From: Ignavibacterium sp.
GTDB taxonomy: Bacteria > Bacteroidota > Ignavibacteria > UBA10030
Direction: 5' to 3'
NCBI GenBank assembly: GCA_039961715.1
Contig: JABRVW010000060.1
Span: 22,949-86,948 of the forward strand
DNA: 64,000 nucleotides
Positions within the stretch are counted from its first letter, which is position 1; every line of letters begins with the position of its first letter. Position numbers and translations under genes: made by a program. The notes beneath the pieces are model-generated. The model was not told the origin of the DNA. It searched no databases and saw nothing but the letters and a program-made list of their open reading frames with translations. Below, in pieces: positions 6,013-46,452 of the stretch.

Positions 6013-6041
6013 TTGCATATTTATACAATATATCGTATAAT
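6013..6041 (+). promoter_or_regulatory. Sigma70-like promoter for the arg cluster (TTGCAT-17 nt-TATAAT), overlapping an AT-rich imperfect palindrome (candidate ArgR operator)
   Basis: TTGCAT at 6013-6018 and TATAAT at 6036-6041 with 17-nt spacing. The argC ATG is at 6047, implying a near-leaderless transcript. A 16-nt near-palindrome atacaatatatcgtat (6023-6038) has 14/16 symmetric positions. Confidence 0.4.
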
Positions 6042-6046
6042 TATTC

Positions 6047-7063
6047 ATGCCCAATGCCGTGGTTTCCATCATCGGCGCCTCGGGGTATTCAGGTGCCGAG
6101 CTTCTTTCCGTTCTCGCCGGACATCCGTCCGTCAGACTCGGCAAGCTCTTTGCGAACGCTTCCGCAGGAAAGCCCGTGCACGAGGCACTTCCGCGCCTCG
6201 CAGGAGTCGTCAAGGCTTCGCTGGAGCCCTATTCACCCGACGCCGCCTGTGAGAGCGACCTTGTGTTCATTGCCCTCCCGTCGGGAGAGGCGATGAATCT
6301 TGTCCCCGAATTGTTGAAGCGCGGCAAGCGCGTGATCGATCTGGGAGGAGACTTCCGGCTGGCAGATCCAGGGACCTATGAGCACTTCTACAAAAGGGTG
6401 CACACGGCCGGTGATCTGCTGGGAGAAGCGATCTATGGGCTCCCGGAATGGAATCGCGAGAAAATCCGGAACGCCCGGCTTGTTGCGAATCCCGGGTGCT
6501 ATCCCACGAGCATTCTCCTTCCTCTGCTCCCGCTTCTCAAAGAGCGTCTTCTTGGCAACGAAGGAATCGTTGTGAACTCGTTGTCGGGAGTCTCCGGGGC
6601 CGGCCGGAGCGCTTCTCCGGACCTTTCGTTTGTCGAAGTGAACGAGTCTGTCAAGGCCTACAAGGTTGGGAACCATCAGCACATTCCCGAGATCGACCGC
6701 GCATTGACCGATCTGGCGCGCGCGCATGTATCCTTCACTTTTGTTCCTCATCTGCTCCCCATCACCCGCGGCATCTACACCACGATTTCCGCTCCCCTTG
6801 CGTCCAATGTCGGCGAGCCGGAAATCAGGGAAGCGTTCCAGCGCTGTTACGAGGGGGAGCCATTCATTCGTTTTGTGCCTGTTCCCGAAATCAAGCACGT
6901 GGCCCACACAAACTTCATCGACATCGGATACACGTTGCACCGAGAGTCCGGTCGTCTGATAATCCTTTCGGCCATTGACAACCTCGTCAAGGGAGCGGCG
7001 GGACAGGCTGTTCAGAACATGAACCTGATGCTCGGCGTCAGGGAAACGGAGGCACTTCTATGA
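6047..7063 (+). CDS. argC: N-acetyl-gamma-glutamyl-phosphate reductase
   Basis: N-terminal Rossmann motif VSIIGASGYSGAELL. Active-site Cys context ANPGCYPTS. Correct length (338 aa). Operon context. Confidence 0.9.
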   Translation: MPNAVVSIIGASGYSGAELLSVLAGHPSVRLGKLFANASAGKPVHEALPRLAGVVKASLEPYSPDAACESDLVFIALPSGEAMNLVPELLKRGKRVIDLGGDFRLADPGTYEHFYKRVHTAGDLLGEAIYGLPEWNREKIRNARLVANPGCYPTSILLPLLPLLKERLLGNEGIVVNSLSGVSGAGRSASPDLSFVEVNESVKAYKVGNHQHIPEIDRALTDLARAHVSFTFVPHLLPITRGIYTTISAPLASNVGEPEIREAFQRCYEGEPFIRFVPVPEIKHVAHTNFIDIGYTLHRESGRLIILSAIDNLVKGAAGQAVQNMNLMLGVRETEALL

Positions 7064-8280
7064 GCACGCCCGACGATGTCCGCGAATGCCAGGGCGGAGT
7101 CACCCTTGCCCGGGGATTCACGGCAGGAGGGATCTATTGCGGGATCCGCAAGGCGAAGAAAGACCTGGCCATCATTCGATCCGACAGACCGGCCGCGGTG
7201 GCGGCGGTGTTCACGCAGAACCGGACGCAGGCGGCGCCTGTGCTTGTGGACAAGATCCAGCTTCAGCGTTCGTCCACCTGTTCCGCCCTCGTGGTCAACA
7301 GCGGTAATGCCAACGCGTGCACGGGAGAACGCGGTCTCAACGACGCGTGGGACATGGTGAAGGTAACAGCCCGTGAACTTTCCGTTCCGGAACATCAGGT
7401 CATGGTGTCGTCAACCGGAGTCATCGGCCAATATCTGCCTATGGAAAAGGTTCTGAACGGGATCATTGAACTCGTTCCGCGCTTGAGCGGCAGCGGCGGG
7501 CAGGATGCCGCAGAGGCCATTATGACGACGGATACCTATCGGAAGGAATCCGCCGTGCAGTTCACCCTGGGGGGATCCGTGGTCACCATCGGCGGCATGG
7601 CGAAAGGATCGGGCATGATCGCTCCAAACATGGCGACGATGCTGGCATTCATCACCACCGATGCAGTCATTGAGCGCCCTTTGCTCCAAATGGCGCTCAA
7701 CCGGGCCAACCGGCATTCCTTCAATCGGGTCACGGTTGACGGGGACATGAGCACAAACGATATGGCAGTGGTTTTGGCGAACGGCGCAGCCGGCAATGTG
7801 GCGTTCGGCGAGCAGTCGGAGGAGTATCAACTGTTTTGCGCCGCCCTGGAATATGTGATGATCAAGCTGGCAAAAATGATCGCCAGGGACGGTGAGGGGG
7901 CCACGAAGCTGATCGAAGTGTGTGTCAAGGGAGCGAAGACCGAGACGGAGGCAGAGGCGGTGGCACGTTCCGTTGCAAACTCCAACCTCGTCAAAACCGC
8001 CGTGCACGGAAATGATGCGAACTGGGGACGGATCATGGCTGCCATCGGTTATTCGGGGGCCGAGGTGAACCCGGACGCGGTTGAAATCCGGTTCAACGAC
8101 CTGCCGGTATTGAACAGGGGCTATGAGATCGTTCTGGACGAGAAAAAGGCAGCCGAAGCGCTCGCAGGCGAGCATGTCATGATCGTTATTGACCTCAACC
8201 GGGGACAGGAAGAGGCTCGATTCTGGACCTGCGATCTCACGAAGGAATATGTGCACATCAACGCGAGTTACCGATCGTGA
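7060..8280 (+). CDS. argJ: Bifunctional ornithine acetyltransferase / N-acetylglutamate synthase ArgJ
   Basis: Self-cleavage/active-site motif ATMLAFITTDA. ATGA overlap with argC. 406 aa. Confidence 0.9.
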   Translation: MSTPDDVRECQGGVTLARGFTAGGIYCGIRKAKKDLAIIRSDRPAAVAAVFTQNRTQAAPVLVDKIQLQRSSTCSALVVNSGNANACTGERGLNDAWDMVKVTARELSVPEHQVMVSSTGVIGQYLPMEKVLNGIIELVPRLSGSGGQDAAEAIMTTDTYRKESAVQFTLGGSVVTIGGMAKGSGMIAPNMATMLAFITTDAVIERPLLQMALNRANRHSFNRVTVDGDMSTNDMAVVLANGAAGNVAFGEQSEEYQLFCAALEYVMIKLAKMIARDGEGATKLIEVCVKGAKTETEAEAVARSVANSNLVKTAVHGNDANWGRIMAAIGYSGAEVNPDAVEIRFNDLPVLNRGYEIVLDEKKAAEALAGEHVMIVIDLNRGQEEARFWTCDLTKEYVHINASYRS

Positions 8281-9170
8281 AGACCAAAACCATCGACTAC
8301 GCGACCAAGGAAGAAGTGTTGATTGAGGCGCTTCCGTACATTCAGACGTACGAAGGAAAGACGTTCGTCATCAAGTACGGCGGTGCCGCCATGACGGATG
8401 AAACCCTGAAGCACACGTTCGCAAAGGATGTCACGATCCTGAGGAAGATCGGAATCAACATTGTCATCGTACACGGCGGAGGGCGCGAGATCACGGACGT
8501 TGCTTCCGCGCTTGGAATCGAAACGCGGTTTGTAGACGGTCAACGGTACACGGACGAAGCCATGGCGCGGGTCGTCCTCATGGTGCTTTCCGGCAAGGTC
8601 AACAAGGAAATCGTGCATCTGATCAATCGCTCCGGAGGAAACGCGGTCGGACTGTGCGGGTTGGATAACGGATTGCTGAAAGCTGTGCGGCTGACAAAGG
8701 ACGGCCCGGACCTGGGATTCGTTGGAGGCGTATCGTCGGTTAATACGGCGTTCCTGGAGCTTCTTTTGCGAAATGGACTTATGCCGGTCGTGGCTCCCCT
8801 TGCGGCGGGTCCTTCGGGAGAGGTGTTCAACGTCAATGCTGATCTGGCCGCGGCCGCCGTGGCTTCTGCGCTCGAGGCAGAAAAGCTTGTGTACCTGAGC
8901 GATGTGGAGGGGATTCTCGGGAACGGTGCATTGGTGTCGACACTGACGCGGACGGAAGCGGCGCGAATGATTGAGCGCGGAGAAATTTTCGGCGGGATGA
9001 TTCCAAAAGTTCGATCAGCCTTTGAGACCCTGGATGCGGGGGTGCGAAAGGTCCATATTGTGGACGGCCGCGTCAAGCATTCGTTGCTGCTGGAAATCTT
9101 TACCGACGAAGGCATCGGGACACAGATGCTGCACGACAACGGGAATGGGAAGGGGCGCCCGCCTCTATGA
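8277..9170 (+). CDS. argB: Acetylglutamate kinase
   Basis: FVIKYGGAAM amino-acid-kinase N-terminal motif. GTG start overlapping the argJ stop. 297 aa. Confidence 0.9.
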   Translation: MKTKTIDYATKEEVLIEALPYIQTYEGKTFVIKYGGAAMTDETLKHTFAKDVTILRKIGINIVIVHGGGREITDVASALGIETRFVDGQRYTDEAMARVVLMVLSGKVNKEIVHLINRSGGNAVGLCGLDNGLLKAVRLTKDGPDLGFVGGVSSVNTAFLELLLRNGLMPVVAPLAAGPSGEVFNVNADLAAAAVASALEAEKLVYLSDVEGILGNGALVSTLTRTEAARMIERGEIFGGMIPKVRSAFETLDAGVRKVHIVDGRVKHSLLLEIFTDEGIGTQMLHDNGNGKGRPPL

Positions 9171-10105
9171 AGAAGGACCTGCTGACGCTTTTTGACCTGA
9201 CTCGGGAAGAGCTCGATCGCCTCTTTGAGGAAGCAGACAGGCTTCGTCACGACCGTTCGGCGGTACCTCTGCGCGGGCAGACCGTGGCGATGGTCTTTCA
9301 GAAACCTTCCCTCAGAACACGGGTGTCGTTCGAAGTGGCGGTTTCCCAGCTGGGAGGCCACACGACCTTTCTCTCACAGGAAAGCATCGGCATCGGCACC
9401 AGGGAATCGGTTCACGATGTGGCATTGCTGTTGTCGCGTTATTGCGAGGCCATCGTGGCGCGGTTGTTCGATCACCAGGTGCTCGTTGATCTCGCACAGT
9501 TCGCGACCATTCCGGTGATCAACGCACTGACGGACCTGTCCCATCCCTGTCAGGTGCTTGCTGATCTGTACACCGTACGCCGGCATGGGAGGTTGAGGCC
9601 GGGTGTAACCGTGGCGTTTGTCGGCGACGGCAACAACGTGGCCAATTCCTGGCTGGAGGTTTCCACATTGTACCCCATCCGCTTCTTGCTCGCGGCGCCG
9701 GAGGGGTATCAGCCCGATCCGGCAATCGTCCAAAGGGCTCGTGATGCGGGCGTGAGTTCCATTGAGATTGTTGTCGATCCAAAAGAAGCAGTACGGGACG
9801 CCGATGTGGTCTATACAGACGTATGGACAAGCATGGGGCAGGAGGCTGAGGCAGAGAAGCGAAAGAAGGCCTTCAAGGACTATCAGGTCAGCGAGGCGCT
9901 TATGCGCGAGGCTCCCTCCGAATGCCTGGTCATGCATTGCCTCCCGGCTCATCGGGGCGAAGAGATCACGGATGGCGTGATCGACGGGCCCCGATCCGTG
10001 GTGTTTGACCAGGCGGAGAACAGGCTCCACGTGCAAAGAGCGGTCCTTGCCGCTCTCTGTTCACAGAAGAAACGTGCCGCTATGGCACAAGGAGCGGAGC
10101 GATGA
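9167..10105 (+). CDS. argF: Ornithine carbamoyltransferase (canonical OTC)
   Basis: Carbamoyl-phosphate motif SLRTR (STRTR-type). Ornithine-binding DVWTSMG (DxxxSMG). HCLP motif. ATGA overlap with argB. Confidence 0.85.
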   Translation: MKKDLLTLFDLTREELDRLFEEADRLRHDRSAVPLRGQTVAMVFQKPSLRTRVSFEVAVSQLGGHTTFLSQESIGIGTRESVHDVALLLSRYCEAIVARLFDHQVLVDLAQFATIPVINALTDLSHPCQVLADLYTVRRHGRLRPGVTVAFVGDGNNVANSWLEVSTLYPIRFLLAAPEGYQPDPAIVQRARDAGVSSIEIVVDPKEAVRDADVVYTDVWTSMGQEAEAEKRKKAFKDYQVSEALMREAPSECLVMHCLPAHRGEEITDGVIDGPRSVVFDQAENRLHVQRAVLAALCSQKKRAAMAQGAER

Positions 10106-10560
10106 AACAGAAGCGTCAGTTGGCAATAAAGGAAATCCTGTCGGAAAAAAGCATTGCGACCCAGGACGAGCTCTCCCAGGCATTGAAGCGTGCAGGGTTC
10201 AAAGTCACCCAGGCAACGCTCTCGAGGGACCTCCGGGAACTCGGTGTGGGCCGCGTCAACACGCCGGATGGGCCGCGTTACGTTCTTCAGCCGGAAAACG
10301 AAGAGAGAAAGCTTCGGGCTTTTCTCGGATACGAGATCGAAGGCATCCGCGCAAATGAGGCGGTCATAGTCGTCAAGACTCTGCCCGGCCGGGCGCAGGG
10401 CGTTGCAGAGATTATCGACAGCCTGCATCATCCCCTCGTTCTTGGAACGCTGGCAGGGGACAACACGATTCTGGTTACGCCGGCCTCGGTCAAGAAGATC
10501 CCCGATGTCATGCGGGTGATCCGTTCGCTGATGGTGGAGCGGCGCGCCGCCGCAGGCTGA
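10102..10560 (+). CDS. argR: Arginine repressor ArgR
   Basis: N-terminal winged-helix [25 protein letters not shown]-terminal oligomerisation/arginine-binding domain. ATGA overlap with argF. Confidence 0.85.
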
Positions 10561-10604: not shown

Positions 10605-11852
10605 GTGAAAAAACAACGAATTGCCGTGGCCTATTCGGGCGGATTGGACACCTCGGTCATTGTGCACTGGCTCAAGGAACGGTACAATGCAGAGATCGTC
10701 ACCGTGACCGGAAACCTGGGCCAGCGAAAGGAACTGGCTGGCCTGGCGGAGAAAGCATACAAAACCGGAGCCACAAAGGTCTATATCCAGGATCTGCGGG
10801 AAGAGTTTGTCGAGGAGTATCTCTGGCGATCACTCAAGGCCGGAGCCCTCTATGAGCACACATACCCGATGGCTACGTCCATCGGGAGACCATTGCTGGC
10901 AAAGGCTTTGGTTGACGTGGCCCGTCGCGAGCGTTGCACGGCCGTTGCACACGGTTGTACCGGAAAGGGAAACGATCAGGTGCGGTTTGAAGCCGCGGTG
11001 GCCGCGCTCGCGCCGGACCTGACCGTATTGGCTCCATTGCGGGAATGGGAGTTTCGTTCGCGGGAGGAAGAAATCGCCTATTGCGAACGACATGGCATCC
11101 CGGTCACAGCCACGAAGAAAAGCCCGTATTCCATCGATGAGAATGTCTGGGGGACAAGCATCGAATGCGGTGTTCTCGAGGACCCGATGGTCGAGCCTCC
11201 GGAGGACGCGTACCAACGTACCGTCTCGCCGAAAAGAGCCCCCGATAAGGTCCAATACGTCGCAATTGAATTCCGTCATGGAGTCCCCGTGGCAATGAAC
11301 GGAAAGACCATGAAGGGATTTGATCTCATCGATTCGCTCAATTCCATTGCCGGCGCGAACGGCATTGGGCGGATGGACCTCGTGGAGAACCGGCTGGTCG
11401 GAATAAAATCGCGCGAGATCTACGAGGCGCCCGCCGCCGTGACCCTGCACTTCGCACACCGCGAGCTCGAGAGGCTGACGCTTGACAAGGAGGTCATGCA
11501 CGTAAAGGCAAAAATCGCACACGATTATGCCAATCTCATCTACAATGGCCTGTGGTTTTCTCCTCTCCGCATGGCCTATGACGCGTTTGTGAATGAAACA
11601 CAGAAGGTTGTAAATGGATTGGTGAAGCTGAAGTTGTACAAAGGCACGATCGAGATCGCCGGCCGGACGTCACCGAACTCGCTCTACGACACGAAGCTGG
11701 CCACGTACACAGAAGAAGACTCGTTTGACCACAAGGCCAGCGAAGGTTTCATCAAAATCTTCAGCCTGCCGCTCAAAACCTACTATAGGGTCAATGGCAA
11801 CGGGCTTGCCAAAAGACCAGCCGTGATGCGGAAAAAAGCGAAAAAGCCGTAA
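10605..11852 (+). CDS. argG: Argininosuccinate synthase
   Basis: PP-loop motif [14 protein letters not shown] start with GGAG 6 nt upstream. 415 aa. Confidence 0.9.
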
Positions 11853-11881
11853 TTCTGAAGGCTCAAAACCACCCTTTTTTC

Positions 11882-11928
11882 TTGACTCCCGCAACTTTAT
11901 TGGCTTTATTATCGTAATAATACGATAA
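11882..11928 (+). promoter_or_regulatory. Putative ars promoter (-35 TTGACT) with 8-4-8 inverted-repeat operator, candidate ArsR binding site
   Basis: TTGACT at 11882-11887. Perfect inverted repeat TTATCGTA-ATAA-TACGATAA at 11909-11928, ending 5 nt before the arsR ATG. The region is conspicuously AT-rich relative to its surroundings. Confidence 0.4.
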
Positions 11929-11933
11929 AAGAA

Positions 11934-12266
11934 ATGCCCAGAACGAAGAAGCATTTGTTCAGCAAAGCCGACGTCGAGCTTTCAGAGATTGCAAAAGCCT
12001 TGACCCATCCGGCAAGGATTGCCATTCTGAAAGAATTGTCAAGACGACAAGAATGCATTTGTGGGGAGATTGTTGATCGCATTCCGCTCGCACAGGCCAC
12101 GGTTTCTCAGCATCTCAAGGAGTTGAAATCGTTGGGTCTCATCGCCGGAGAGATAGAAGGGCCGAAATCCTGCTATTGCATCAACTGGAAAAAGCTCGAC
12201 GAGGTGTCGGCTTTATTGAGGGATTTTTTCGATCAGCTCAGAACCAACCACCAACGCTGTTGTTAA
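11934..12266 (+). CDS. arsR: ArsR/SmtB family metalloregulator
   Basis: Helix-turn-helix ARIAILKELS....ATVSQHLKELK. Metal(loid)-binding Cys cluster ECICGE just upstream of the recognition helix. Visibly lower GC than neighbouring genes. Confidence 0.8.
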   Translation: MPRTKKHLFSKADVELSEIAKALTHPARIAILKELSRRQECICGEIVDRIPLAQATVSQHLKELKSLGLIAGEIEGPKSCYCINWKKLDEVSALLRDFFDQLRTNHQRCC

Positions 12267-12282
12267 GAAAGGGAAAAGCATC

Positions 12283-13086
12283 ATGGAGAATCGGACGGAT
12301 CTCAAGGACATCGTCAGGGAAAAATACGGGGAGATTGCCCGCCGGTCGGAGCGAGCATCGTCGTCGTGCTGTGGGCCGGGATGTGGCTGTTCGGGGGATA
12401 CCATCATGGCGGACTCCTACACGGCGCTTGAAGGCTATGTCGCGGAGGCCGACCTCGGTCTCGGGTGCGGAATCCCGACTGACGGAGCGGGCATACGAGC
12501 CGGCGACGTCGTGCTTGATCTTGGATCAGGTGCCGGGAACGATGTGTTTGTTGCACGCCGGCTCGTCGGAGAGCACGGCAGGGTCATCGGGGTGGACTTC
12601 ACTCCGGCCATGGTTGAAAAAGCGGAATCGAATCGGCGGAAACTGGGCTATGAGAACGTGGAGTTCCGGCTTGGCGATATCGAAGAGCTTCCGGTCGAGT
12701 CCGGTTCAGTGGACGTTGTCATTAGCAACTGCGTCTTGAATCTTGTACCGGAGAAGTCAAAGGCTTTTGAGCAAATCTTCCGTGTATTGAAGCCCGGAGG
12801 CCACTTCAGCATTTCGGACATCGTTGTGTCGGCCCCCCTCCCCCCTGCTCTTCGTTCCGTCGCAGAGCTCTATGCAGGATGTGTTGCAGGGGCCGTGGAG
12901 CGCAGAGAATACATCCGCTTGATCGAATCGGCTGGATTCCGTACTGTAAGAATCATAAAGGAAAAACAAATCACGATTCCCGAAGAAGACCTCAGAACAT
13001 TAGTTTCGCCTGCCGATCTCGAAGCATATTATTCATCGGGAGCGAAAATCGAAAGCATCACCGTCGTGGGAGAAAAACCTCAATGA
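12283..13086 (+). CDS. arsM: Arsenite S-adenosylmethionine methyltransferase
   Basis: N-terminal As(III)-binding cysteines SSSCCGPGCGCSGD. SAM-binding motif VLDLGSGAGNDVF. Third conserved Cys in NCVLNL. 267 aa. Confidence 0.85.
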   Translation: MENRTDLKDIVREKYGEIARRSERASSSCCGPGCGCSGDTIMADSYTALEGYVAEADLGLGCGIPTDGAGIRAGDVVLDLGSGAGNDVFVARRLVGEHGRVIGVDFTPAMVEKAESNRRKLGYENVEFRLGDIEELPVESGSVDVVISNCVLNLVPEKSKAFEQIFRVLKPGGHFSISDIVVSAPLPPALRSVAELYAGCVAGAVERREYIRLIESAGFRTVRIIKEKQITIPEEDLRTLVSPADLEAYYSSGAKIESITVVGEKPQ

Positions 13087-13514
13087 TGTTCAGGAGTGCC
13101 GGAGCAGGCGACCTGGAAGCCATTGTTCGATTGCTGGACGAAAACATGCTGCCTTCCGCCGACATTGGCGAGCACCTGGATGACGTTCTGGTCGCATTCG
13201 ATGACGGAGCAGTGATCGGTGTTGTGGGTGGTGAATACTCAGGCCATGATGCATTGCTCCGCTCCCTTGCGGTTCAAACAGCTTCTCGGGGACGCGGGCT
13301 CGGGATCGCTCTCACTCGTGCGATGCTCTCGGTCATGAAGGAACGGGGTGTCCGGCGGGTTGCCCTTCTGACCACAACCGCCGAGGGCTTTTTCGCTAAG
13401 CAGGGTTTTCGTACTGTCCCGAAAGGTCGGATCCCGGATTTCGTAAAAGCATCGAAGGAATTCCGTCTCTATTGTCCCTCGACGGCAGTCTGCATGGTAA
13501 AAGAACTGGCATGA
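13083..13514 (+). CDS. GNAT N-acetyltransferase, ArsN-like / short N-acetylglutamate-synthase-like
   Basis: 143 aa single GNAT domain with acetyl-CoA motif LAVQTASRGRGLGIAL. Start (MMFRS) overlaps the arsM stop by 4 nt, and its own stop overlaps the arsC start by 4 nt, so it is translationally coupled into the ars cassette. Confidence 0.7.
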   Translation: MMFRSAGAGDLEAIVRLLDENMLPSADIGEHLDDVLVAFDDGAVIGVVGGEYSGHDALLRSLAVQTASRGRGLGIALTRAMLSVMKERGVRRVALLTTTAEGFFAKQGFRTVPKGRIPDFVKASKEFRLYCPSTAVCMVKELA

Positions 13515-13948
13515 AAGGCCGGCAAAAGCAAAGGGTTCTTGTCCTCTGTACGGGCAACAGCTGTCGCAGTCAGATGGCTGAGGGATGGCTGAGGCATTTT
13601 GCCGGCGAACGCGCCGAAGTGTTCAGCGCGGGCATCGAGGCTCACGGCCTGAATCCCCTGGCCGTCCGCGTCATGCGCGAAGCGGGAATCGACATTTCCG
13701 GTCACACGTCGAAGACCATCGAGGACCTCGGCGCCAGGGATTTCGACATGGTCATTACCGTCTGCGACAATGCCCGCGAGCAGTGCCCCTATTTTCCGGC
13801 CCGCGTGCGTCAACTCCATCATGACTTTCAGGACCCCGCAAAGGTCAGCGGTACGGAAGAAGAAGTCCTTTCTGCCTTCCGCGCCGTTCGGGACCAGATC
13901 AGAATCTACTGCCAGGCCGTGGCTATTCAGTACATCAAAGCTGTTTAG
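13511..13948 (+). CDS. arsC: Arsenate reductase, LMW-PTP/thioredoxin-coupled type
   Basis: P-loop CX5R VLVLCTGNSCRSQMAEGW. Downstream redox Cys pair ITVCDNAREQCPYFP, as in Bacillus-type ArsC. The internal ATG at 13511 gives a 145-aa product. Confidence 0.85.
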   Translation: MKGRQKQRVLVLCTGNSCRSQMAEGWLRHFAGERAEVFSAGIEAHGLNPLAVRVMREAGIDISGHTSKTIEDLGARDFDMVITVCDNAREQCPYFPARVRQLHHDFQDPAKVSGTEEEVLSAFRAVRDQIRIYCQAVAIQYIKAV

Positions 13949-14045
13949 GCTGTAGTGCCCATTGCCAATTCAAAATCCCCATTGCCCTCCCTCCGATTTT
14001 TTCCTATCTTCTCACTCTTTCCTTCATCACACGGAACAAATCGTC

Positions 14046-15434
14046 ATGTCGCAGAAAGCGCTATGGAGCGGCCGGTTCAAGGAATCATTGTCGAAGGCCG
14101 CCCTCACGTTCTCCTCTTCCATCGAATTCGACAAGCAACTTTACCAGGAAGACATCGCAGGAAGCATTGCACACGTAGAGATGCTTTCCGCGTGCCGGAT
14201 CATCACAGCCGCCGAGGCGCGTAAGATCCGCAACACCCTCAAAGCTATCCAGAAGGAAATTGAAACAGGGAAATTCCCCCTGGGAGATGAAGAGGAGGAC
14301 ATCCATCTTGCCATCGAGCAGAGACTCATTCAGAAGATCGGGCCGGTCGGGGGGAAATTGCATACGGCGAGGAGCCGGAACGACCAGATAGCGCTTGATG
14401 AGCGTCTGTTCCTGCGAACCGCTGTCAGGGAGATCCAGAAGCTCATCACCCATCTTCAACGCGTCCTCTTGTACAAATCAGAGAAGTACTTTGGCGTTCT
14501 GATGCCCGGATACACTCATGTCCAGCGGGCACAGCCGGTTCTTTTGGCTCATCACCTGCTGGCGTACGTATCTATGCTTGAACGGGATTACGAACGGTTG
14601 GGCGACTGCCTGAAACGCTCTAACAAGTCGCCGCTCGGAGCGGCCGCGCTCGCCGGGACATCGTTCCCCATCGATCGGATGAAGACAGCGAAGAAGCTGG
14701 GATTTGACGGGATTGTGGAGAATAGCATCGATGCTGTCAGCGACCGCGATTATATCCTGGAATTTGTCTCCGCGTGCTCAATCCTTGCCATGCATCTGAG
14801 CCGCATGGCAGAGGAGTTCGTTTTGTGGTCAACCAAAGAGTTTGCCTTCGTGCAGATCAGCGATGCCTATACAACGGGCAGCAGCATCATGCCCCAGAAG
14901 AAGAATCCGGACATTGCCGAACTGATACGCGGCAAGACCGGTTCCGTGTACGGTAACCTGATGAACCTGCTGACGATGATGAAGGCCCTTCCGCTCGCCT
15001 ATAACAGAGACATGCAGGAGGACAAGGCCCCGCTCTTTGAAACCGTCAAAACCGTCCGGACAAGCCTGTTTGTAATGACGCACATGCTCGTGCATACGGA
15101 GTTCCGAAAGGAACATCTGGAAGAAGAGCTGCGAAACGACTTCACTTCAGCGACCGACGTCGCGGACTATCTGGTGCGCAAGGGCCTTCCCTTCAGGGAA
15201 GCACACGAAATCACGGGACGCATCGTTTCCTACTGCATCGATCACAGGATGTACTTCGGGAACCTCGACCTGGAAACTCTGAAGACCTTTTCGAAGCATT
15301 TCGAAGCGGATATTTTTGATTTCCTCCTTCCGCGCCAGAGTGTGGAGCAAAAGAAATCAGCAGGCAGTACGTCGCCGCAGGAAGTGAAGAAGCAGATTGT
15401 ACACTGGACCCGGGTGTTGAAGGCGAGAAAATAG
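14046..15434 (+). CDS. argH: Argininosuccinate lyase
   Basis: Fumarate-lyase family. MSQKALWSGRF start gives a 462-aa product; the 28-codon upstream extension in the ORF track is rejected. Conserved GSSIMPQKKNPD signature. Confidence 0.9.
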   Translation: MSQKALWSGRFKESLSKAALTFSSSIEFDKQLYQEDIAGSIAHVEMLSACRIITAAEARKIRNTLKAIQKEIETGKFPLGDEEEDIHLAIEQRLIQKIGPVGGKLHTARSRNDQIALDERLFLRTAVREIQKLITHLQRVLLYKSEKYFGVLMPGYTHVQRAQPVLLAHHLLAYVSMLERDYERLGDCLKRSNKSPLGAAALAGTSFPIDRMKTAKKLGFDGIVENSIDAVSDRDYILEFVSACSILAMHLSRMAEEFVLWSTKEFAFVQISDAYTTGSSIMPQKKNPDIAELIRGKTGSVYGNLMNLLTMMKALPLAYNRDMQEDKAPLFETVKTVRTSLFVMTHMLVHTEFRKEHLEEELRNDFTSATDVADYLVRKGLPFREAHEITGRIVSYCIDHRMYFGNLDLETLKTFSKHFEADIFDFLLPRQSVEQKKSAGSTSPQEVKKQIVHWTRVLKARK

Positions 15435-24375: not shown

Positions 24376-26517
24376 CTAACGCCAGAACGATCCTACTTCC
24401 ATGAAATTCTGCACCCAGAAGAGCCAACGAATGCCGAGAGCTCGAGCGGCGGTGGAACGAAATCCGGAAGGTCGGACAACCTTGCTGTTGTTCACATAGT
24501 TGACGTCCATGACGATCTTCATGTCCGGATCGACGACGGCATACCGAACCGGCGAATTCGTCCTGTACACGAATTGCGTCCACCGGTACTCGCCGTCCCA
24601 ATGCTCCCGTCGTTCCTCCCCGTTGTCAAAGACGACAAGGACATCCACCGGTGAAATGGCTTCTCCCTCCCGGCTGACTACCACAGTGCATTCGTACGCG
24701 GAGTCGGGCGGCGCGGGAGGATCCACCGGTTGTCCATTGTTCGTAAACACGCCCGCGGGCGGAGGAAGCCTTCGGTTCACGATGGACTCAATCTTGTAGT
24801 CGAACAGATTACTGCTGTACCAGGTGTTGCGGAAAAACCAGCTCATGTCGTTTCCGGTTACTTCGTTGACGACGGCGATGAAGTCTTGAGAAGTGGGGTG
24901 TTTGAAGCGATAACGGTGGTGGTAGGTGCGCAGAATTCGGTACATGGCTTCCTCCCCCACCGTGTATTCCAATTGCCAGAGCGACATCGCGGGCTTCGTG
25001 TAGGAATTCAGGCCATAGGACTGAAAGTACTCCCACCCCCTGCGGGCCATGACATCGTTCTTGCCTTGGTTCCGAAGCTGAAGATTTCCGCTGGAGTATC
25101 GCGATTGTTCGATGTCGTTGAACACGTAGGGAATCCCCACGAAGGACCCGGCTCCCGGTCCACCAAAGAAATACCGAACCGCCTTGAACGGAGGCCAGGC
25201 AGTCTGCAGAACACGGTCCTGAGAGTACGAATTGAAACCTTCATCGAGCCAGGCTTCCTCGAACTCGTTGTTGCCGATCAGCCCATACCAGAACTGGTGG
25301 CCGAATTCATGGACGGTGACGCTTTCGGGAGACGGAGCTTCCTTCGGGGCAAACATGGTTCCCCCTCCCGTGAAGATCGTCGGATACTCCATGCCACCCG
25401 ACCTGCTGTCGTTGGCCGGATCGACCACCGTGACCGTCTCGTAGGGGTACTCTCCGTACCACTCTCCGTAGTATCGCAGGGCCTTGAAGGTCGCCTCAAA
25501 ATAGCGCTCAACCAGATTCTGGTGATGTGGTTGGGACAGAAGGATGACCTGGACGGGCCTCAGCGGATGGTGACGGTCCAGGCGTTCGCCTTCTTCGGGC
25601 TCTGCGTGAACGAATGTTCTGACCTCACGGACCAGGCTAGGAGATGCAACCCATGTGAAATCGTGGACATCTTCCTGATAAAACCGATGAGTGGTGGTTC
25701 CGTCGCTGTTTTGGCGAATCTCCCGCGGAATCCCCCCTGTTGCACCTATGACGTAATGATCCGGAAGGGTGATCTTCACGTCATAGACCCCGTAGTCTGC
25801 GAAGAATTCAGTCGTCGCATGAAACTGGTGGCAATTCCACTCGCCGTTCCACCACACGCCGATCTTCGGAAACCACTGGGCCACAAAATGATAGTCCCTG
25901 ATGGCCCCCGTGCGGGATATCGGAAGAGGCTGTTTTGTTTCAAACTCGATGCGCAGTCTGAGGGTTTCTCCATTTCTAATCGGCCGCGGAGTGGCGATCT
26001 GGAAAACTGTTTGATCGTCGGCATTGTCGTCGTCGGGCTGAATATAACGGAAGGTTCCCGTGATGTCCGTTTCGCCGCGCTGGTCAAGCATGACCACGCG
26101 CGTAACGTTGGTATAACCATAATCCTCCTGCTTCATGTTCGGGCGGCCGAGTCTCCATCCGCTTTCTTTGGCAAACGTACTCCGATTGTTCTTCCAGGCG
26201 TTGTGATACAGATGAAAGGGGAATTGGGATTGAGGACGGCCTGTCGTGTTCTTCCATTCAAGGATTTCCCATCCCGAGATGCGCCGGGCATCCGGATCCA
26301 GCCGGACATCCATGGTGTAGTTGGCGATGCGTTCGCTCCGCGGCGGAAGTGTGAGGGCGCGATCCCAGGCCGCGAGAGCTGAACCCTGGGAGAGACTGGG
26401 TCGTGGCGGCGAATCGATGGCGCGATTGCTTTGAGGCAGGCCAAGGAACGCGACGAGAGCGAGCGCGACTGCAACCAACACGCCGCCTTCAAGGAGGGAA
26501 AGGAACCGACGGGACAT
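24376..26517 (-). CDS. M1 family zinc metallopeptidase (aminopeptidase N-like), secreted
   Basis: Signal peptide. HEFGH + 18 residues + E (HExxHx18E). GGMEY variant of the GAMEN exopeptidase motif. Confidence 0.8.
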   Translation of the reverse strand: MSRRFLSLLEGGVLVAVALALVAFLGLPQSNRAIDSPPRPSLSQGSALAAWDRALTLPPRSERIANYTMDVRLDPDARRISGWEILEWKNTTGRPQSQFPFHLYHNAWKNNRSTFAKESGWRLGRPNMKQEDYGYTNVTRVVMLDQRGETDITGTFRYIQPDDDNADDQTVFQIATPRPIRNGETLRLRIEFETKQPLPISRTGAIRDYHFVAQWFPKIGVWWNGEWNCHQFHATTEFFADYGVYDVKITLPDHYVIGATGGIPREIRQNSDGTTTHRFYQEDVHDFTWVASPSLVREVRTFVHAEPEEGERLDRHHPLRPVQVILLSQPHHQNLVERYFEATFKALRYYGEWYGEYPYETVTVVDPANDSRSGGMEYPTIFTGGGTMFAPKEAPSPESVTVHEFGHQFWYGLIGNNEFEEAWLDEGFNSYSQDRVLQTAWPPFKAVRYFFGGPGAGSFVGIPYVFNDIEQSRYSSGNLQLRNQGKNDVMARRGWEYFQSYGLNSYTKPAMSLWQLEYTVGEEAMYRILRTYHHRYRFKHPTSQDFIAVVNEVTGNDMSWFFRNTWYSSNLFDYKIESIVNRRLPPPAGVFTNNGQPVDPPAPPDSAYECTVVVSREGEAISPVDVLVVFDNGEERREHWDGEYRWTQFVYRTNSPVRYAVVDPDMKIVMDVNYVNNSKVVRPSGFRSTAARALGIRWLFWVQNFMEVGSFWR

Positions 26518-26595
26518 GGTGAGTCTCCTGGGTCTTATTCTGTACCAAACGGTTTCTGAATATAGGAAAAAGCGGCCTGAAAAGAGATACGCCCG

Positions 26596-45144: not shown

Positions 45145-46452
45145 TCAGTCCAGACGATGAACGCCCTTGACCAGCTCTGCGAATCGCGCGCTCTTCAGGA
45201 GCTCGGCGAAACGGGCATCTTTCATGAGGCCCGCGAACCTGGCATCCTTGGCGAGCTGGGCGAACCGTGCATCCTTCATGAGCTCGGCAAAACGGGCATC
45301 TTTCATCAGCTCGGCAAAGCGTGCGTCTTTCATAAGTCCCGCGAAACGGGCGTCCTTTGCCAATTCCGCAAACCGTGCATCTTTCATCAGCGCGGCAAAT
45401 CGCGCGTCCTTGGCGAGCTCGGCGAACCGTGCATCCTTCATAAGCTCGGCAAAGCGGGCGTCCTTCGCCAGTTCCGCGAACCGGGCGCTCTTCAGGAGTT
45501 CTGCAAACCGTGAATCCTTGGCAAGCTCAGCAAACCTGGCATCTTTGGCCAGCGCAGCGAAGCGAGCGTTGTTTGCCAGTTCCGCAAAGCGGGCATCTTT
45601 CATCAGCTCCGCGAATCTGGCGTCCTTCATGAGTTCCGCAAAGCGGGCGCTTTTCACAAGCTCTGCAAAGCGGGCATCCTTCGCCAGCTCGGCGAACCGG
45701 GCATCTTTTGCCAGTTCGGCAAACCGCGCATCCTTTGCCAGTTCGGCAAAGCGGGCGTCCTTCGCCAGTTCCGCGAACCGTGCATCCTTCAGAAGCTCGG
45801 CAAACCGCGCATCTTTTGCCAGCTCTGCGAATCGCGCATCCTTGGCCAGTTCGGCAAACCGCGCATTGTTCGCCAGTTCCGCAAACCGCGCATCCTGCAT
45901 AAGCTCGGCGAAGCGCGCATCCTTCATCAGCTCGGCAAACCGGGCGTCTTTCATAAGTTCCGCAAAGCGGGCGCCCTGAAGCAATTCGGCAAACCGCGCA
46001 TCCTTCGCCAGCTCTGCGAACCGTGCATCCTTCGCCAGCTCGGCGAACCGTGCATCTTTTGCCAGTTCGGCAAACCGCGCATCCTGCATGAGCTCGGCAA
46101 AGTATGCGCCTTGCATCAATTCGGCAAACCGCGCATCCTTCGCCAGTTCGACGAACCGGGCATCCTGCATCAGCGCCTGGAAGTTCGGGTCGCCGATCAG
46201 CTTCTGAACCTGGTCGCTCTGCAACAGCAGTTGAAACTCGGGATCCTCAAGATTGACATCCTCGGCTGTCATTTGCTCGGCGCGGTACTTCTCAGCCTTC
46301 TGGATCCCGCCAATCGTTCCCGCCGCATCGTCTGAGCTGACGGGCGGATAGAAGAACGCAAAATAGATGATTGCCAGTGCGGCGACGACAACTCCGCCGG
46401 CGGCAAACAATCTCTTGCGGCTTCCCGCTGATCCTGTGGAACTCGGTGCCAT
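45145..46452 (-). CDS. Membrane-anchored tandem nonapeptide-repeat protein (about 40 x [K/Q]-D-A-R-F-A-E-L-[A/M/L])
   Basis: N-terminal single TM (RKRLFAAGGVVVAALAIIYFAFFY) with positive-inside residues. About 40 consecutive 9-aa repeats. Perfect SD (AAGGAGGA) 5 nt upstream of ATG. 17-nt gap after the anti-sigma gene. Own terminator downstream. Confidence 0.75.
   Translation of the reverse strand: MAPSSTGSAGSRKRLFAAGGVVVAALAIIYFAFFYPPVSSDDAAGTIGGIQKAEKYRAEQMTAEDVNLEDPEFQLLLQSDQVQKLIGDPNFQALMQDARFVELAKDARFAELMQGAYFAELMQDARFAELAKDARFAELAKDARFAELAKDARFAELLQGARFAELMKDARFAELMKDARFAELMQDARFAELANNARFAELAKDARFAELAKDARFAELLKDARFAELAKDARFAELAKDARFAELAKDARFAELAKDARFAELVKSARFAELMKDARFAELMKDARFAELANNARFAALAKDARFAELAKDSRFAELLKSARFAELAKDARFAELMKDARFAELAKDARFAALMKDARFAELAKDARFAGLMKDARFAELMKDARFAELMKDARFAQLAKDARFAGLMKDARFAELLKSARFAELVKGVHRLD
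45166..46248 (-). repeat. Coding tandem repeat, 27-bp period, about 40 copies, degenerate at synonymous positions
   Basis: Protein-level period of 9 residues, with 3 degenerate N-terminal copies then about 37 near-identical copies. The DNA copies differ mainly at third codon positions. Confidence 0.85.

What the first reader, a model, noticed from the sequence alone, without database searches (positions are those of the whole stretch)
11882..13948. Arsenic cassette (arsR-arsM-GNAT-arsC) inserted between argG and argH of the arginine operon
The arg cluster argCJBF-argR-argG is interrupted before argH by four genes: ArsR, the arsenite methyltransferase ArsM, a 143-aa GNAT and a thioredoxin-type ArsC. 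The GNAT overlaps both arsM (ATGA) and arsC (ATGA), so it is translationally locked into the ars unit. Single-domain GNATs of this size next to arsC have been described as ArsN, which is homologous to N-acetylglutamate synthase, the first step of arginine synthesis. Finding such a gene physically inside an arginine biosynthesis cluster that already encodes ArgJ is striking. It may reflect the evolutionary recruitment route of ArsN from arg GNATs, a dual-function enzyme, or a horizontally acquired cassette that landed in the arg operon. The arsR gene and its upstream region are visibly more AT-rich than their flanks.
Basis: partly seen in the sequence, partly recalled or inferred. Interest (0 to 1): 0.6.

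Follow-up and report, generated by a model that had tools for sequence, protein, structure and literature searches.

The report
Arsenic operon lodged in arginine cluster
A self-regulated four-gene arsenic-detoxification operon (arsR-arsM-arsN2-arsC) sits between two arginine-synthesis genes in one clade of Ignavibacteria, but it landed in a spot where unrelated genes often insert, so the link to arginine looks accidental and the locus is largely ordinary.

Summary
arsR (11934-12266), arsM (12283-13086), a 143-aa GNAT (13083-13514) and a thioredoxin-type arsC (13511-13948) lie between argG and argH, with ATGA overlaps on both sides of the GNAT. The GNAT is a member of the ArsN2 family: it scores 137.7 bits against a cutoff of 125. 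It is not ArsN1 and not an N-acetylglutamate synthase (NAGS), although NAGS domains are its closest solved fold.

The cassette has its own conserved promoter-like region and a perfect palindrome. That palindrome precedes every orthologous arsR, including two cassettes that have no arg genes nearby.

The cassette occurs at this site in one monophyletic Ignavibacteriales clade. It is under purifying selection and has host-like base composition, so it is an old, vertically inherited single insertion rather than a recent transfer.

In relatives, the argG-argH interval holds an amidase, a restriction-modification pair, glycosidases or nothing. argH keeps its own conserved promoter-like motif in all of them. 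Only 1 of 80 other ArsN2 loci lies near arg genes, and that one belongs to the same clade; 36 of the 80 lie next to arsM.

Verdict: a new member of a known kind, and the arginine context is incidental. The remaining interest is the unknown ArsN2 reaction and its strong linkage to ArsM.

The parts
6014..6047 (+). Two ARG-box-like sites (TGCATATTTATACA and its neighbour) upstream of argC. They are context only and show where ArgR control of the cluster probably sits.
   Evidence: The pattern TGCATAWWWATRCA matches only here in or near the arg-ars region of the window, with none near arsR or argH. The sites are conserved upstream of argC in relatives.
10605..11852 (+). argG (argininosuccinate synthase), the left flank of the insertion site.
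   Evidence: NF001770 scores 598.7 bits. It was used to fetch 80 related loci.
11882..11887 (+). TTGACT, a -35-like box of the cassette's own promoter region.
   Evidence: TTGAC(A/T) is conserved at the same distance from arsR in all nine aligned upstream regions. The consensus scan did not call a full sigma-70 promoter here, so promoter function is inferred.
11909..11928 (.). A perfect 8-4-8 palindrome, TTATCGTA-ATAA-TACGATAA, ending 5 nt before the arsR start codon. It is the putative ArsR operator.
   Evidence: It occurs once in the window even with 3 mismatches allowed. The core TATCGTA-N4-TACGATA occurs exactly once in each of the 14 loci with this arsR type, always just upstream of arsR. 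These include L081 and L097, which have no arg genes. It is absent from the other 162 loci.
11934..12266 (+). arsR, an ArsR/SmtB metalloregulator of 110 aa.
   Evidence: NF033788 scores 64.5 bits against a cutoff of 55; HTH_5 and HTH_20 also match. The EC[VIL]CGE motif (C41, C43) is conserved in 12 of 13 aligned homologues (L092 has SCICSD), and the C-terminal CC (C109, C110) in all but L081.
12283..13086 (+). arsM, a SAM-dependent arsenite methyltransferase of 267 aa.
   Evidence: NF008823 scores 335.3 bits against a cutoff of 263. The four cysteine motifs SCCG, GLGCG, SNCVLNL and AGCV are present; the last three are conserved in all 13 homologues and the first is GCCG in L081. dN/dS is 0.069 against L001.
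13083..13514 (+). arsN2, a 143-aa GNAT N-acetyltransferase of the ArsN2 family.
   Evidence: NF040501 scores 137.7 bits against a cutoff of 125. ArsN1a scores 12.8 against 170, and the NAGS models score 21-36 against 180-344. It carries all family-invariant residues, including C131. The AF2 model has pLDDT 93.9, and its nearest solved folds are NAGS domains. dN/dS is 0.13-0.16.
13511..13948 (+). arsC, a 145-aa arsenate reductase of the LMW-PTP / thioredoxin-coupled type.
   Evidence: TIGR02691 scores 162.1 bits, just under its cutoff of 174.3. PF01451 scores 78.3. The CTGNSCRS P-loop and the VCDN..C.P cysteines are conserved.
13998..14010 (+). TTTTTCCTATCTT, a conserved promoter-like motif upstream of argH and the right boundary of the inserted segment.
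   Evidence: The motif lies about 36-65 nt before the argH ATG, both in relatives with the cassette and in most relatives without it (L032 lacks a clear copy). A near-identical motif precedes another gene at 26559-26571 on the - strand. Promoter function is inferred.
14046..15434 (+). argH (argininosuccinate lyase), the right flank of the insertion site.
   Evidence: TIGR00838 scores 622.7 bits.

Best explanation
This is a self-contained, ArsR-controlled arsenic detoxification operon, arsR-arsM-arsN2-arsC.

How it got there. It was inserted once, as a pre-assembled module with its own promoter and operator, into the variable argG-argH interval of an ancestor of one Ignavibacteriales clade. It has been inherited vertically since then. 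In the window's sub-lineage, the amidase gene that normally follows argG was later lost, which left the cassette flush against argG.

Inferred working (from what is established for these families, not shown here):
- Without arsenic, ArsR sits on the palindrome next to the promoter and represses the operon.
- As(III), and possibly methylarsenite, binds the ArsR cysteines and releases it.
- ArsC reduces arsenate to arsenite using thioredoxin.
- ArsM methylates arsenite with SAM towards volatile or less reactive species.
- ArsN2 is an amino-acid-type N-acetyltransferase with a NAGS-like fold. It acetylates a substrate that is still unidentified and probably connected with ArsM chemistry.

The cassette encodes no efflux pump. 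The neighbourhood of arginine genes is incidental. argCJBF-argR-argG keeps its ARG boxes upstream of argC, and argH keeps its own promoter-like element.
For: Identity: family scores are above the curated cutoffs for ArsR, ArsM and ArsN2. ArsC carries the catalytic cysteines.

Own control region: the TTGAC box and the palindrome are conserved upstream of arsR in all 14 loci with this arsR type and in none of the 162 others. They are present in L081 and L097, where no arg genes are near.

Single old insertion:
- The carriers (window, L001-L004, L006) form one clade in an ArgJ+ArgB+ArgG tree of 66 loci.
- Identities of the cassette proteins fall in step with the arg proteins.
- dN/dS is 0.06-0.16.
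- G+C of arsM, arsN2 and arsC equals the flanks.
- There are no flanking repeats.

Variable site:
- Thirty-seven loci carry an Amidase_3 gene after argG.
- Other relatives carry a GH3 glycosidase, a TldD/PmbA peptidase, a TonB receptor, a methylase plus TdeIII restriction pair or type IX secretion cargo, or only a 160-620 bp spacer.

argH autonomy: an upstream motif is conserved with and without the cassette. ARG boxes occur only before argC.

ArsN2 is linked to ars genes, not arg genes:
- There are 262 plasmid records annotated arsN2, and the four inspected lie among ars genes.
- Of 80 metagenome ArsN2 loci, 49 have an ars gene within 1.5 kb and 36 have arsM.
- Only 1 of the 80 has arg genes, and it belongs to the same Ignavibacteria clade.
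- In the GNAT tree, the arg-context proteins are one nested clade whose neighbours are arg-free arsR-arsM-arsN2 cassettes.
Against: - No experiment supports any step. ArsR binding, inducer specificity and promoter use are inferred.
- The consensus scan called no canonical sigma-70 promoter at arsR. It also found no terminators after argG or arsC. Read-through from argG into the cassette, and from the cassette into argH, is therefore possible and could create a regulatory link.
- The ArsN2 substrate is unknown in the literature. Some proteins that pass the ArsN2 cutoff lie in non-arsenic contexts, so the label does not guarantee an arsenic substrate.
- The trees are neighbour-joining without bootstrap, and the GNAT is short.
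- The rest of the genome was not available. I cannot show that another NAGS exists, or whether an arsenite pump is encoded elsewhere.
Confidence: 0.8

Rival explanations
1. The GNAT is, or doubles as, the arginine pathway's N-acetylglutamate synthase (a short NAGS like Mtb Rv2747 or the ArgH(A) fusions). On this reading its position in the arg cluster is functional.
For: The nearest solved folds and sequences are NAGS domains: 2r8v with TMq 0.86 and E 1.5e-11, 5yo2/5yge, and 3e0k. There are weak hits to NAGS models and to the GNAT part of the ArgH-NAGS fusion model PRK12308. The gene lies between argG and argH.
Against: All NAGS models score far below their cutoffs: 36 vs 180, 26.3 vs 344, 21.2 vs 202.85. 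The ArsN2 model is passed. The gene is packed tightly with arsM and arsC, behind an ArsR operator and with no ARG box. Relatives with the same arg cluster and ArgJ lack any GNAT there. ArgJ matches the bifunctional model at 523 bits. 79 of 80 other ArsN2 loci have no arg genes.
Confidence: 0.05
2. The cassette is a recent horizontal acquisition (a genomic islet), marked by the AT-rich arsR region.
For: G+C dips to 0.46-0.47 around arsR. GC3 of arsR, arsM and arsN2 (0.57-0.60) is lower than that of the arg genes (0.68-0.73) in the window. dS between the window and L001 is higher in the cassette (0.97-1.44) than in the arg genes (0.40-0.76).
Against: The same cassette sits at the same site in six species-level genomes plus several metagenome contigs, and these form one clade. 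Identities decline in parallel with the arg genes. arsR is the low-GC gene in every relative, and the other three genes match the flanks. There are no flanking repeats, integrase or transposase.
Confidence: 0.05
3. The co-location is selected. For example, arsenic-induced read-through from the cassette may raise argH expression, or ArsN2 may supply N-acetylglutamate or an arginine-related metabolite under arsenic stress.
For: No terminator-like hairpin lies between argG and arsR or between arsC and argH, and all genes are co-directional. The arrangement has been kept across a clade in which ArgG has diverged to about 82% identity.
Against: Retention is expected for any vertically inherited insertion. 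The same interval holds unrelated cargo elsewhere, including a restriction-modification pair. argH keeps its own conserved upstream motif. The same cassette type works in arg-free contexts.
Confidence: 0.08
4. ArsN2-family GNATs are general xenobiotic or thiol-conjugate N-acetyltransferases, not arsenic-specific enzymes. The cassette copy would then be a generalist carried along with arsM.
For: Proteins that pass the ArsN2 cutoff lie next to, and overlap, DinB/MST-type S-transferase genes with no ars genes (P0051 and P0054; L084-L087, L099, L101, L104, L107). Others are orphans, such as P0073. Seven of 24 well-flanked metagenome loci show no recognisable ars gene within 1.5 kb.
Against: Most loci are ars-linked, and 36 of 80 are arsM-linked. 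The DinB-linked proteins form a separate subclade. A cloned arsN raised arsenate resistance in E. coli (Chauhan 2009, as cited).
Confidence: 0.12

Closest known systems
ArsN2-containing ars operons (Nadar et al. 2019, Commun Biol, PMC6465285; Chauhan et al. 2009; NCBIfam NF040501)
   Same: The GNAT passes the ArsN2 equivalog model. It shares all residues that are invariant across members from Pseudomonadota, Deinococcota, Bacteroidota, Gemmatimonadota-like bacteria and Halobacteria. It lies in an ArsR-headed operon with arsC and arsM. The Adhaeribacter plasmid operon arsR-arsN2-arsM-metallophosphoesterase-acr3 is the closest annotated layout.
   Different: The gene order here is arsR-arsM-arsN2-arsC, and the cassette has no ACR3/ArsB, ArsH, ArsI, aquaporin or MFS gene. 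It is chromosomal, fixed in one Ignavibacteriales clade, and lies between argG and argH. Identity to annotated plasmid ArsN2 proteins is only 37-46%.
N-acetylglutamate synthases: N. gonorrhoeae NAGS (2R8V), short NAGS Mtb Rv2747 (5YGE/5YO2), ArgH(A) fusions (PRK12308)
   Same: These are the best structural and sequence matches among solved proteins. The size is that of a single GNAT domain, as in short NAGS. The gene neighbours arg genes.
   Different: It fails every NAGS family cutoff. It has the ArsN2-specific motifs LP..D, LLRSLAV, LLTTTAE.FF and a C-terminal E..C131PS, and the alignments to NAGS stop before that last motif. It is regulated with ars genes, not by ARG boxes.
ArsN1 / phosphinothricin N-acetyltransferase-type arsinothricin resistance enzymes (PpArsN1)
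   Same: It is a GNAT encoded in an ars operon, and its presumed acceptor is an amino-acid-like compound.
   Different: It belongs to a different GNAT clade. The ArsN1a model scores 12.8 bits against a cutoff of 170. No phosphinothricin-type structure appears among the top 47 fold matches. The cassette's ArsM is the general arsenite methyltransferase type, not the arsinothricin-pathway ArsM, which scores 144.7 against a cutoff of 500. No ArsL-type radical SAM gene is present.
arsRM / arsRMC methylation-type ars operons of anaerobes and soil bacteria
   Same: An ArsR-controlled ArsM serves as the detoxifying step, with no dedicated efflux pump. The ArsC is thioredoxin-type.
   Different: There is an additional, tightly packed ArsN2 between arsM and arsC. 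This pairing recurs in 36 of 80 sampled ArsN2 loci.

Membership tests
ArsN2 (NF040501, arsenic resistance N-acetyltransferase) | The whole-protein score reaches the curated equivalog cutoff. | tested here: met
   137.7 bits against a cutoff of 125, covering model positions 1-132 of 133. Clade relatives score 134.6-143.6 bits.
ArsN2 (NF040501, arsenic resistance N-acetyltransferase) | It shares the residues conserved across the family. | tested here: met
   L17, L18, L23, P24, E51, L59, R60, S61, L95-A100, F104, E126 and C131 are invariant in the 42 aligned members. L17, L18, L23, P24, E51, L59, R60, S61, L95, T97-A100, F104 and C131 are invariant in a second 26-sequence set that includes four annotated plasmid ArsN2 proteins. 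The window protein has all of them.
ArsN2 (NF040501, arsenic resistance N-acetyltransferase) | It is encoded within an ars operon. | tested here: met
   It overlaps arsM and arsC and lies behind arsR and its operator.
ArsN2 (NF040501, arsenic resistance N-acetyltransferase) | It confers arsenic resistance or acetylates an arsenic-related substrate. | not testable with these tools
   The literature held here calls the function not fully understood.
ArsN1 (arsinothricin resistance N-acetyltransferase) | The score reaches the ArsN1 model cutoff. | tested here: not met
   NF040503 scores 12.8 bits against a cutoff of 170.
N-acetylglutamate synthase (ArgA, short NAGS) | The score reaches a NAGS model cutoff. 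| tested here: not met
   PRK07922 scores 36 against 180, PRK05279 26.3 against 344, and TIGR01890 21.2 against 202.85.
N-acetylglutamate synthase (ArgA, short NAGS) | It has a NAGS-type GNAT fold. | tested here: met
   The AF2 model has pLDDT 93.9. The top Foldseek hits are 2r8v, 5yo2, 3d2p and 5yge, with 3e0k at rank 12; TMq is 0.76-0.86. This shows what it resembles, not membership.
N-acetylglutamate synthase (ArgA, short NAGS) | It is conserved with arg genes independently of ars genes. | tested here: not met
   Relatives with the same arg cluster but no ars cassette have no GNAT there. 79 of 80 other ArsN2 loci lack arg genes.
N-acetylglutamate synthase (ArgA, short NAGS) | It acetylates L-glutamate or complements argA. 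| not testable with these tools
   This needs an enzyme assay or genetic complementation.
ArsM arsenite S-adenosylmethionine methyltransferase | It reaches the model cutoff and has the four conserved cysteines. | tested here: met
   NF008823 scores 335.3 against a cutoff of 263. The SCCG, GLGCG, SNCVLNL and AGCV motifs are present; the last three are conserved in all 13 homologues and the first is GCCG in L081. The roles of these cysteines come from established work on CmArsM.
Thioredoxin-coupled ArsC (pI258 type, LMW-PTP fold) | It reaches the model cutoff. | tested here: inconclusive
   TIGR02691 scores 162.1, just below its cutoff of 174.3. PF01451 scores 78.3 against a cutoff of 23.2.
Thioredoxin-coupled ArsC (pI258 type, LMW-PTP fold) | It has the CX5R P-loop cysteine plus the two downstream cysteines of the disulfide cascade. 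| tested here: met
   LCTGNSCRS and VCDN-AREQCP are present and conserved across the clade. Equivalence to Cys10, Cys82 and Cys89 comes from knowledge of pI258 ArsC.
ArsR/SmtB arsenic-responsive repressor | It reaches the family model cutoff, has metalloid-binding cysteines, and has a palindromic operator at its own promoter. | tested here: met
   NF033788 scores 64.5 against a cutoff of 55. It has the EC[VIL]CGE motif and a C-terminal CC. The unique 8-4-8 palindrome is conserved in all 14 orthologous loci. Binding and inducer were not tested.
Mobile element / genomic island | It has flanking direct or inverted repeats, or an integrase or transposase. | tested here: not met
   No flanking repeats beyond chance-size matches were found. 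The neighbours are arg genes, an amidohydrolase, and Yip1 and PAP2 proteins.

The most novel reading that the evidence does not exclude
ArsN2 may catalyse a new arsenic-detoxification reaction tied to ArsM. On this reading it is a NAGS-derived amino-acid N-acetyltransferase. Its family-invariant cysteine (C131) lies in the beta6-beta7 connection. In NAGS, as I recall from the literature, that region carries carboxylate-binding Arg and Ser residues. In ArsN2 the cysteine might instead hold a trivalent arsenic atom of the acceptor. Candidate acceptors are an arsenical amino acid or a cysteine-arsenical conjugate, which would then be N-acetylated in a mercapturate-like step.

Two observations would both fit. 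ArsN2 is linked to arsM in 36 of 80 loci, and ArsN2-like genes pair with DinB/MST S-transferase genes elsewhere. The structural equivalence of C131 to the NAGS residues is my inference from topology, not from a superposition.
Probability: 0.15. Interest if true: 0.65.

Novelty: new member of a known kind. Interest (0 to 1): 0.3.

Why it matters
As a locus it matters little. It is a standard ArsR-controlled methylation-type ars operon whose position among arginine genes is an accident of an insertion-prone interval. Showing this removes a tempting but unsupported story, that ArsN was born from an arginine-pathway GNAT.

Three things have some value:
- The work gives a clean, phylogenetically dated example of a detoxification module fixed inside a biosynthetic cluster without disturbing that cluster's control elements.
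- It identifies a sharply defined candidate operator for this ArsR subfamily.
- It gives quantitative evidence that ArsN2, whose reaction is still unknown, is most often partnered with ArsM and carries an invariant cysteine. These are usable leads for finding its substrate.

Tried and rejected
- Flanking repeats or att-like sites around 11700-14150: only short, chance-size matches.
- Terminators after argG and after arsC: none convincing. The only strong hairpin in the argG-arsR spacer is the operator palindrome itself.
- A canonical sigma-70 promoter at arsR: not called by the consensus scan. I rely on conservation instead.
- tRNA genes as integration targets: none in the window.
- The missing amidase elsewhere in the window: no hit.
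- ACR3/ArsB among ten mid-sized window ORFs: none. The whole genome was not available.
- Residue-level comparison of C131 with the NAGS substrate site: not possible. Model coordinates and PDB files are not exposed, and sequence alignments to NAGS stop at about residue 122.
- Chauhan 2009 (PubMed 19016868) is not held, so its content is cited only through other papers.
- dS is saturated for window vs L002, so dN/dS there is mostly undefined.
Full report
**Observation**

The window carries, all on the + strand:
- argC 6047-7063, argJ 7060-8280, argB 8277-9170, argF 9167-10105, argR 10102-10560, argG 10605-11852
- arsR 11934-12266, arsM 12283-13086, a 143-aa GNAT 13083-13514, arsC 13511-13948
- argH 14046-15434

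The GNAT start overlaps the arsM stop (ATGA at 13083-13086). Its stop overlaps the arsC start (ATGA at 13511-14). Gene calls on a public contig that encodes the identical GNAT give the same products.

Family assignments are firm:

| Gene | Model | Score (bits) | Cutoff |
|---|---|---|---|
| arsR | ArsR/SmtB, NF033788 | 64.5 | 55 |
| arsM | arsenite methyltransferase, NF008823 | 335.3 | 263 |
| arsC | LMWPc fold, PF01451 | 78.3 | 23.2 |
| arsC | TIGR02691 | 162.1 | 174.3 (just below) |
| argJ | bifunctional model | 523.4 | 351 |

**What the GNAT is**

It passes the NCBIfam equivalog model for ArsN2 (NF040501) at 137.7 bits against a cutoff of 125, over the whole model. It fails ArsN1 (12.8 against 170). 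It also fails every N-acetylglutamate synthase model (36 against 180, 26.3 against 344, 21.2 against 202.85).

In alignments with members from several phyla, including four plasmid proteins annotated ArsN2, it has every invariant residue (L17, L18, L23, P24, E51, L59, R60, S61, L95, T97-A100, F104, C131).

Nadar et al. 2019 defined arsN2 as the clade of ars-operon GNATs that is closer to N-acetylglutamate synthases, and did not characterise it. Reviews from 2025-2026 still call its function unclear.

A confident AlphaFold model (pLDDT 93.9) has NAGS GNAT domains as its closest solved structures:
- N. gonorrhoeae 2r8v, TMq 0.86
- M. tuberculosis Rv2747
- Vibrio 3e0k

A family profile finds the same proteins first by sequence. 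So it resembles an amino-acid N-acetyltransferase but is not a member of the NAGS families.

**The cassette is an autonomous unit**

Upstream of arsR lie a TTGACT box (11882-11887) and a perfect palindrome, TTATCGTA-ATAA-TACGATAA (11909-11928). The palindrome is unique in the window even with three mismatches allowed.

The same architecture is conserved upstream of arsR in all related loci. The core TATCGTA-N4-TACGATA occurs exactly once in each of 14 loci that have this arsR type. It is always just before arsR, and it is absent from the other 162 loci fetched.

Two of those 14 loci (L081, L097) carry arsR-arsM-GNAT with no arg genes anywhere near. I infer that the palindrome is the ArsR operator and that the module travelled with its own control region.

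The residues needed for function are present:
- ArsR has the EC[VIL]CGE cysteines and a C-terminal CC pair.
- ArsM has its four cysteine motifs.
- ArsC has the CX5R loop and the two downstream cysteines.

The roles of these residues come from established work on R773 ArsR, CmArsM and pI258 ArsC, not from tests made here.

**History of the locus**

A scan of 185,579 species genomes with ArgG returned 80 Ignavibacteriota/Chlorobiota-like loci. The same four-gene cassette lies between argG and argH in six of them (L001-L004, L006, L009). It also lies there in several metagenome contigs (L082/83, L089/90, L098).

In an ArgJ+ArgB+ArgG tree of 66 loci the carriers form one clade. Cassette protein identities fall in step with the arg proteins.

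All four genes are under purifying selection. For the window against L001, dN/dS is 0.06-0.13, and the GNAT is the fastest-evolving gene (dN 0.18).

G+C of arsM, arsN2 and arsC (0.56-0.59) equals the flanks. Only arsR is lower (0.49), and it is the lowest-GC gene in every relative. It is not a mark of recent transfer.

**Why the arginine context looks incidental**

In 37 related loci argG is followed by a secreted protein of about 600 aa, confirmed as Amidase_3 in three of them (L082, L089, L090). In the deeper cassette carriers the order is argG-amidase-arsRMN2C-argH. The window, L001 and L002 have since lost the amidase.

Other relatives carry different cargo in the same interval:
- a GH3 glycosidase
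- a TldD/PmbA peptidase
- a TonB-dependent receptor
- a DNA methylase plus TdeIII restriction endonuclease pair
- type IX secretion cargo
- or only a 160-620 bp spacer

argH keeps a conserved upstream motif (TTTTTCCTATCTT, 13998-14010) in genomes with and without the cassette. ARG-box-like sites occur only upstream of argC (6014-6047). So argH was already a separate unit, and the interval is an insertion-prone, variable region.

Conversely, ArsN2 proteins elsewhere associate with arsenic genes:
- 262 plasmid records carry a homologue, annotated arsN2 where annotation was listed.
- All four loci inspected lie among ars genes.
- Of 80 metagenome ArsN2 loci, 49 have an ars-type gene within 1.5 kb and 36 have arsM.
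- Only one of the 80 has arg genes, and it belongs to the same Ignavibacteria clade.

In a GNAT tree rooted on NAGS fragments, the arg-context proteins are a single nested clade. Its neighbours are the arg-free cassettes L081 and L097. This argues against ArsN having been recruited from an arginine-pathway GNAT at this locus.

**Mechanism, with its status**

- Shown: gene content, tight packing, a conserved private control region, purifying selection, vertical inheritance, and a NAGS-like fold for ArsN2.
- Inferred from family knowledge: ArsR represses at the palindrome and is released by As(III), possibly also by methylarsenite given the C-terminal CC pair. ArsC reduces As(V). ArsM methylates As(III). 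No pump is encoded in the cassette, so detoxification would rely on methylation and volatilisation or on a pump encoded elsewhere.
- Unknown: the ArsN2 acceptor. Its frequent pairing with arsM and its invariant cysteine suggest a substrate linked to ArsM chemistry.

**Caveats**

- No terminators separate argG, the cassette and argH, so transcriptional read-through and a regulatory side-effect on argH cannot be excluded.
- Some proteins that pass the ArsN2 cutoff lie beside DinB/MST S-transferases with no ars genes.
- The trees are neighbour-joining without support values.
- The rest of the genome was not available.

**Verdict**

This is a new member of a known kind, an ArsN2-type ars operon. 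Its position in the arginine cluster is best explained by one old insertion into a variable interval. Interest is modest (0.3) and rests mainly on the unresolved function of ArsN2.

Noticed in passing
L097-L176 (metagenome loci); e.g. L111, L132, L138, L139, L154, L162, L176; plasmid L092 4633-8234: A recurrent module of arsM, arsN2 and a metallophosphoesterase. 36 of 80 ArsN2 loci have arsM within 1.5 kb (25 upstream on the same strand, 11 divergent). Many are followed by a metallophosphoesterase gene of unknown role.
   Followed up: partly
L084-L087, L099, L101, L104, L107: Proteins that pass the ArsN2 model cutoff (140-142 bits) abut or overlap a DinB/MST-type thiol S-transferase gene, with an ECF/ABC transporter downstream and no ars genes. 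They form their own subclade. This hints at a thiol-conjugate (mercapturate-like) acetylation role for part of the family.
   Followed up: partly
window 13473-13475 (codon of C131 of the GNAT); alignments A1 and A2: An invariant cysteine sits in the ArsN2-specific C-terminal motif E-F-R-x-x-C-P-S-T-A-V-C-M. The motif lies beyond the point where alignments to NAGS end. From the model's topology, the cysteine falls in the beta6-beta7 connection that usually lines the acceptor site.
   Followed up: partly
L052 9633-12398; L064 4273-6960: A type II restriction-modification pair (N6/N4 DNA methylase plus TdeIII endonuclease) is inserted between argG and the amidase gene in two relatives. Other cargo in the same interval elsewhere includes a GH3 glycosidase, a TldD/PmbA peptidase and a TonB receptor. 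The interval is an insertion hot spot.
   Followed up: yes
L003 11253-13073; L082 2932-4734; 37 loci in all: A secreted protein of about 600 aa (Amidase_3 in the three loci with Pfam calls) is conserved between argG and argH across Ignavibacteriales. It is absent from this 64-kb window and from L001 and L002.
   Followed up: yes
window 6014-6047: Tandem ARG-box-like operators of the form TGCAT-N4-ATGCA (not the E. coli TGAAT-N4-ATTCA form) lie between a terminator hairpin and argC. They are conserved in relatives.
   Followed up: partly
window 13998-14010 and 26559-26571 (- strand): The motif TTTTTCCTAT(C/A)TT lies about 35-55 nt upstream of two unrelated genes: argH, and an M1-peptidase-like gene at 24376-26517. 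It is conserved upstream of argH in most relatives examined. It may be a promoter element of this lineage.
   Followed up: partly
window 11934-13948 against L001: Synonymous divergence between the window and L001 is higher in the four cassette genes (dS 0.97-1.44) than in the flanking arg genes (0.40-0.76). This fits weaker codon bias in the cassette (lower GC3), or possibly an old recombinational replacement.
   Followed up: no
L093 5001-6011 (Deinococcus aetherius plasmid pDAETH-3): An ArsN2 is fused to a C-terminal extension of about 190 aa that ends in a cysteine-rich tail (CCAPTSGSGCCGP). It lies between a MarR gene and an MFS transporter gene.
   Followed up: no
window 45145-46452 (- strand): A 435-aa ORF with a strongly histidine-rich, low-complexity region. 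Its Pfam hit to Plasmodium_HRP is a composition-driven match.
   Followed up: no
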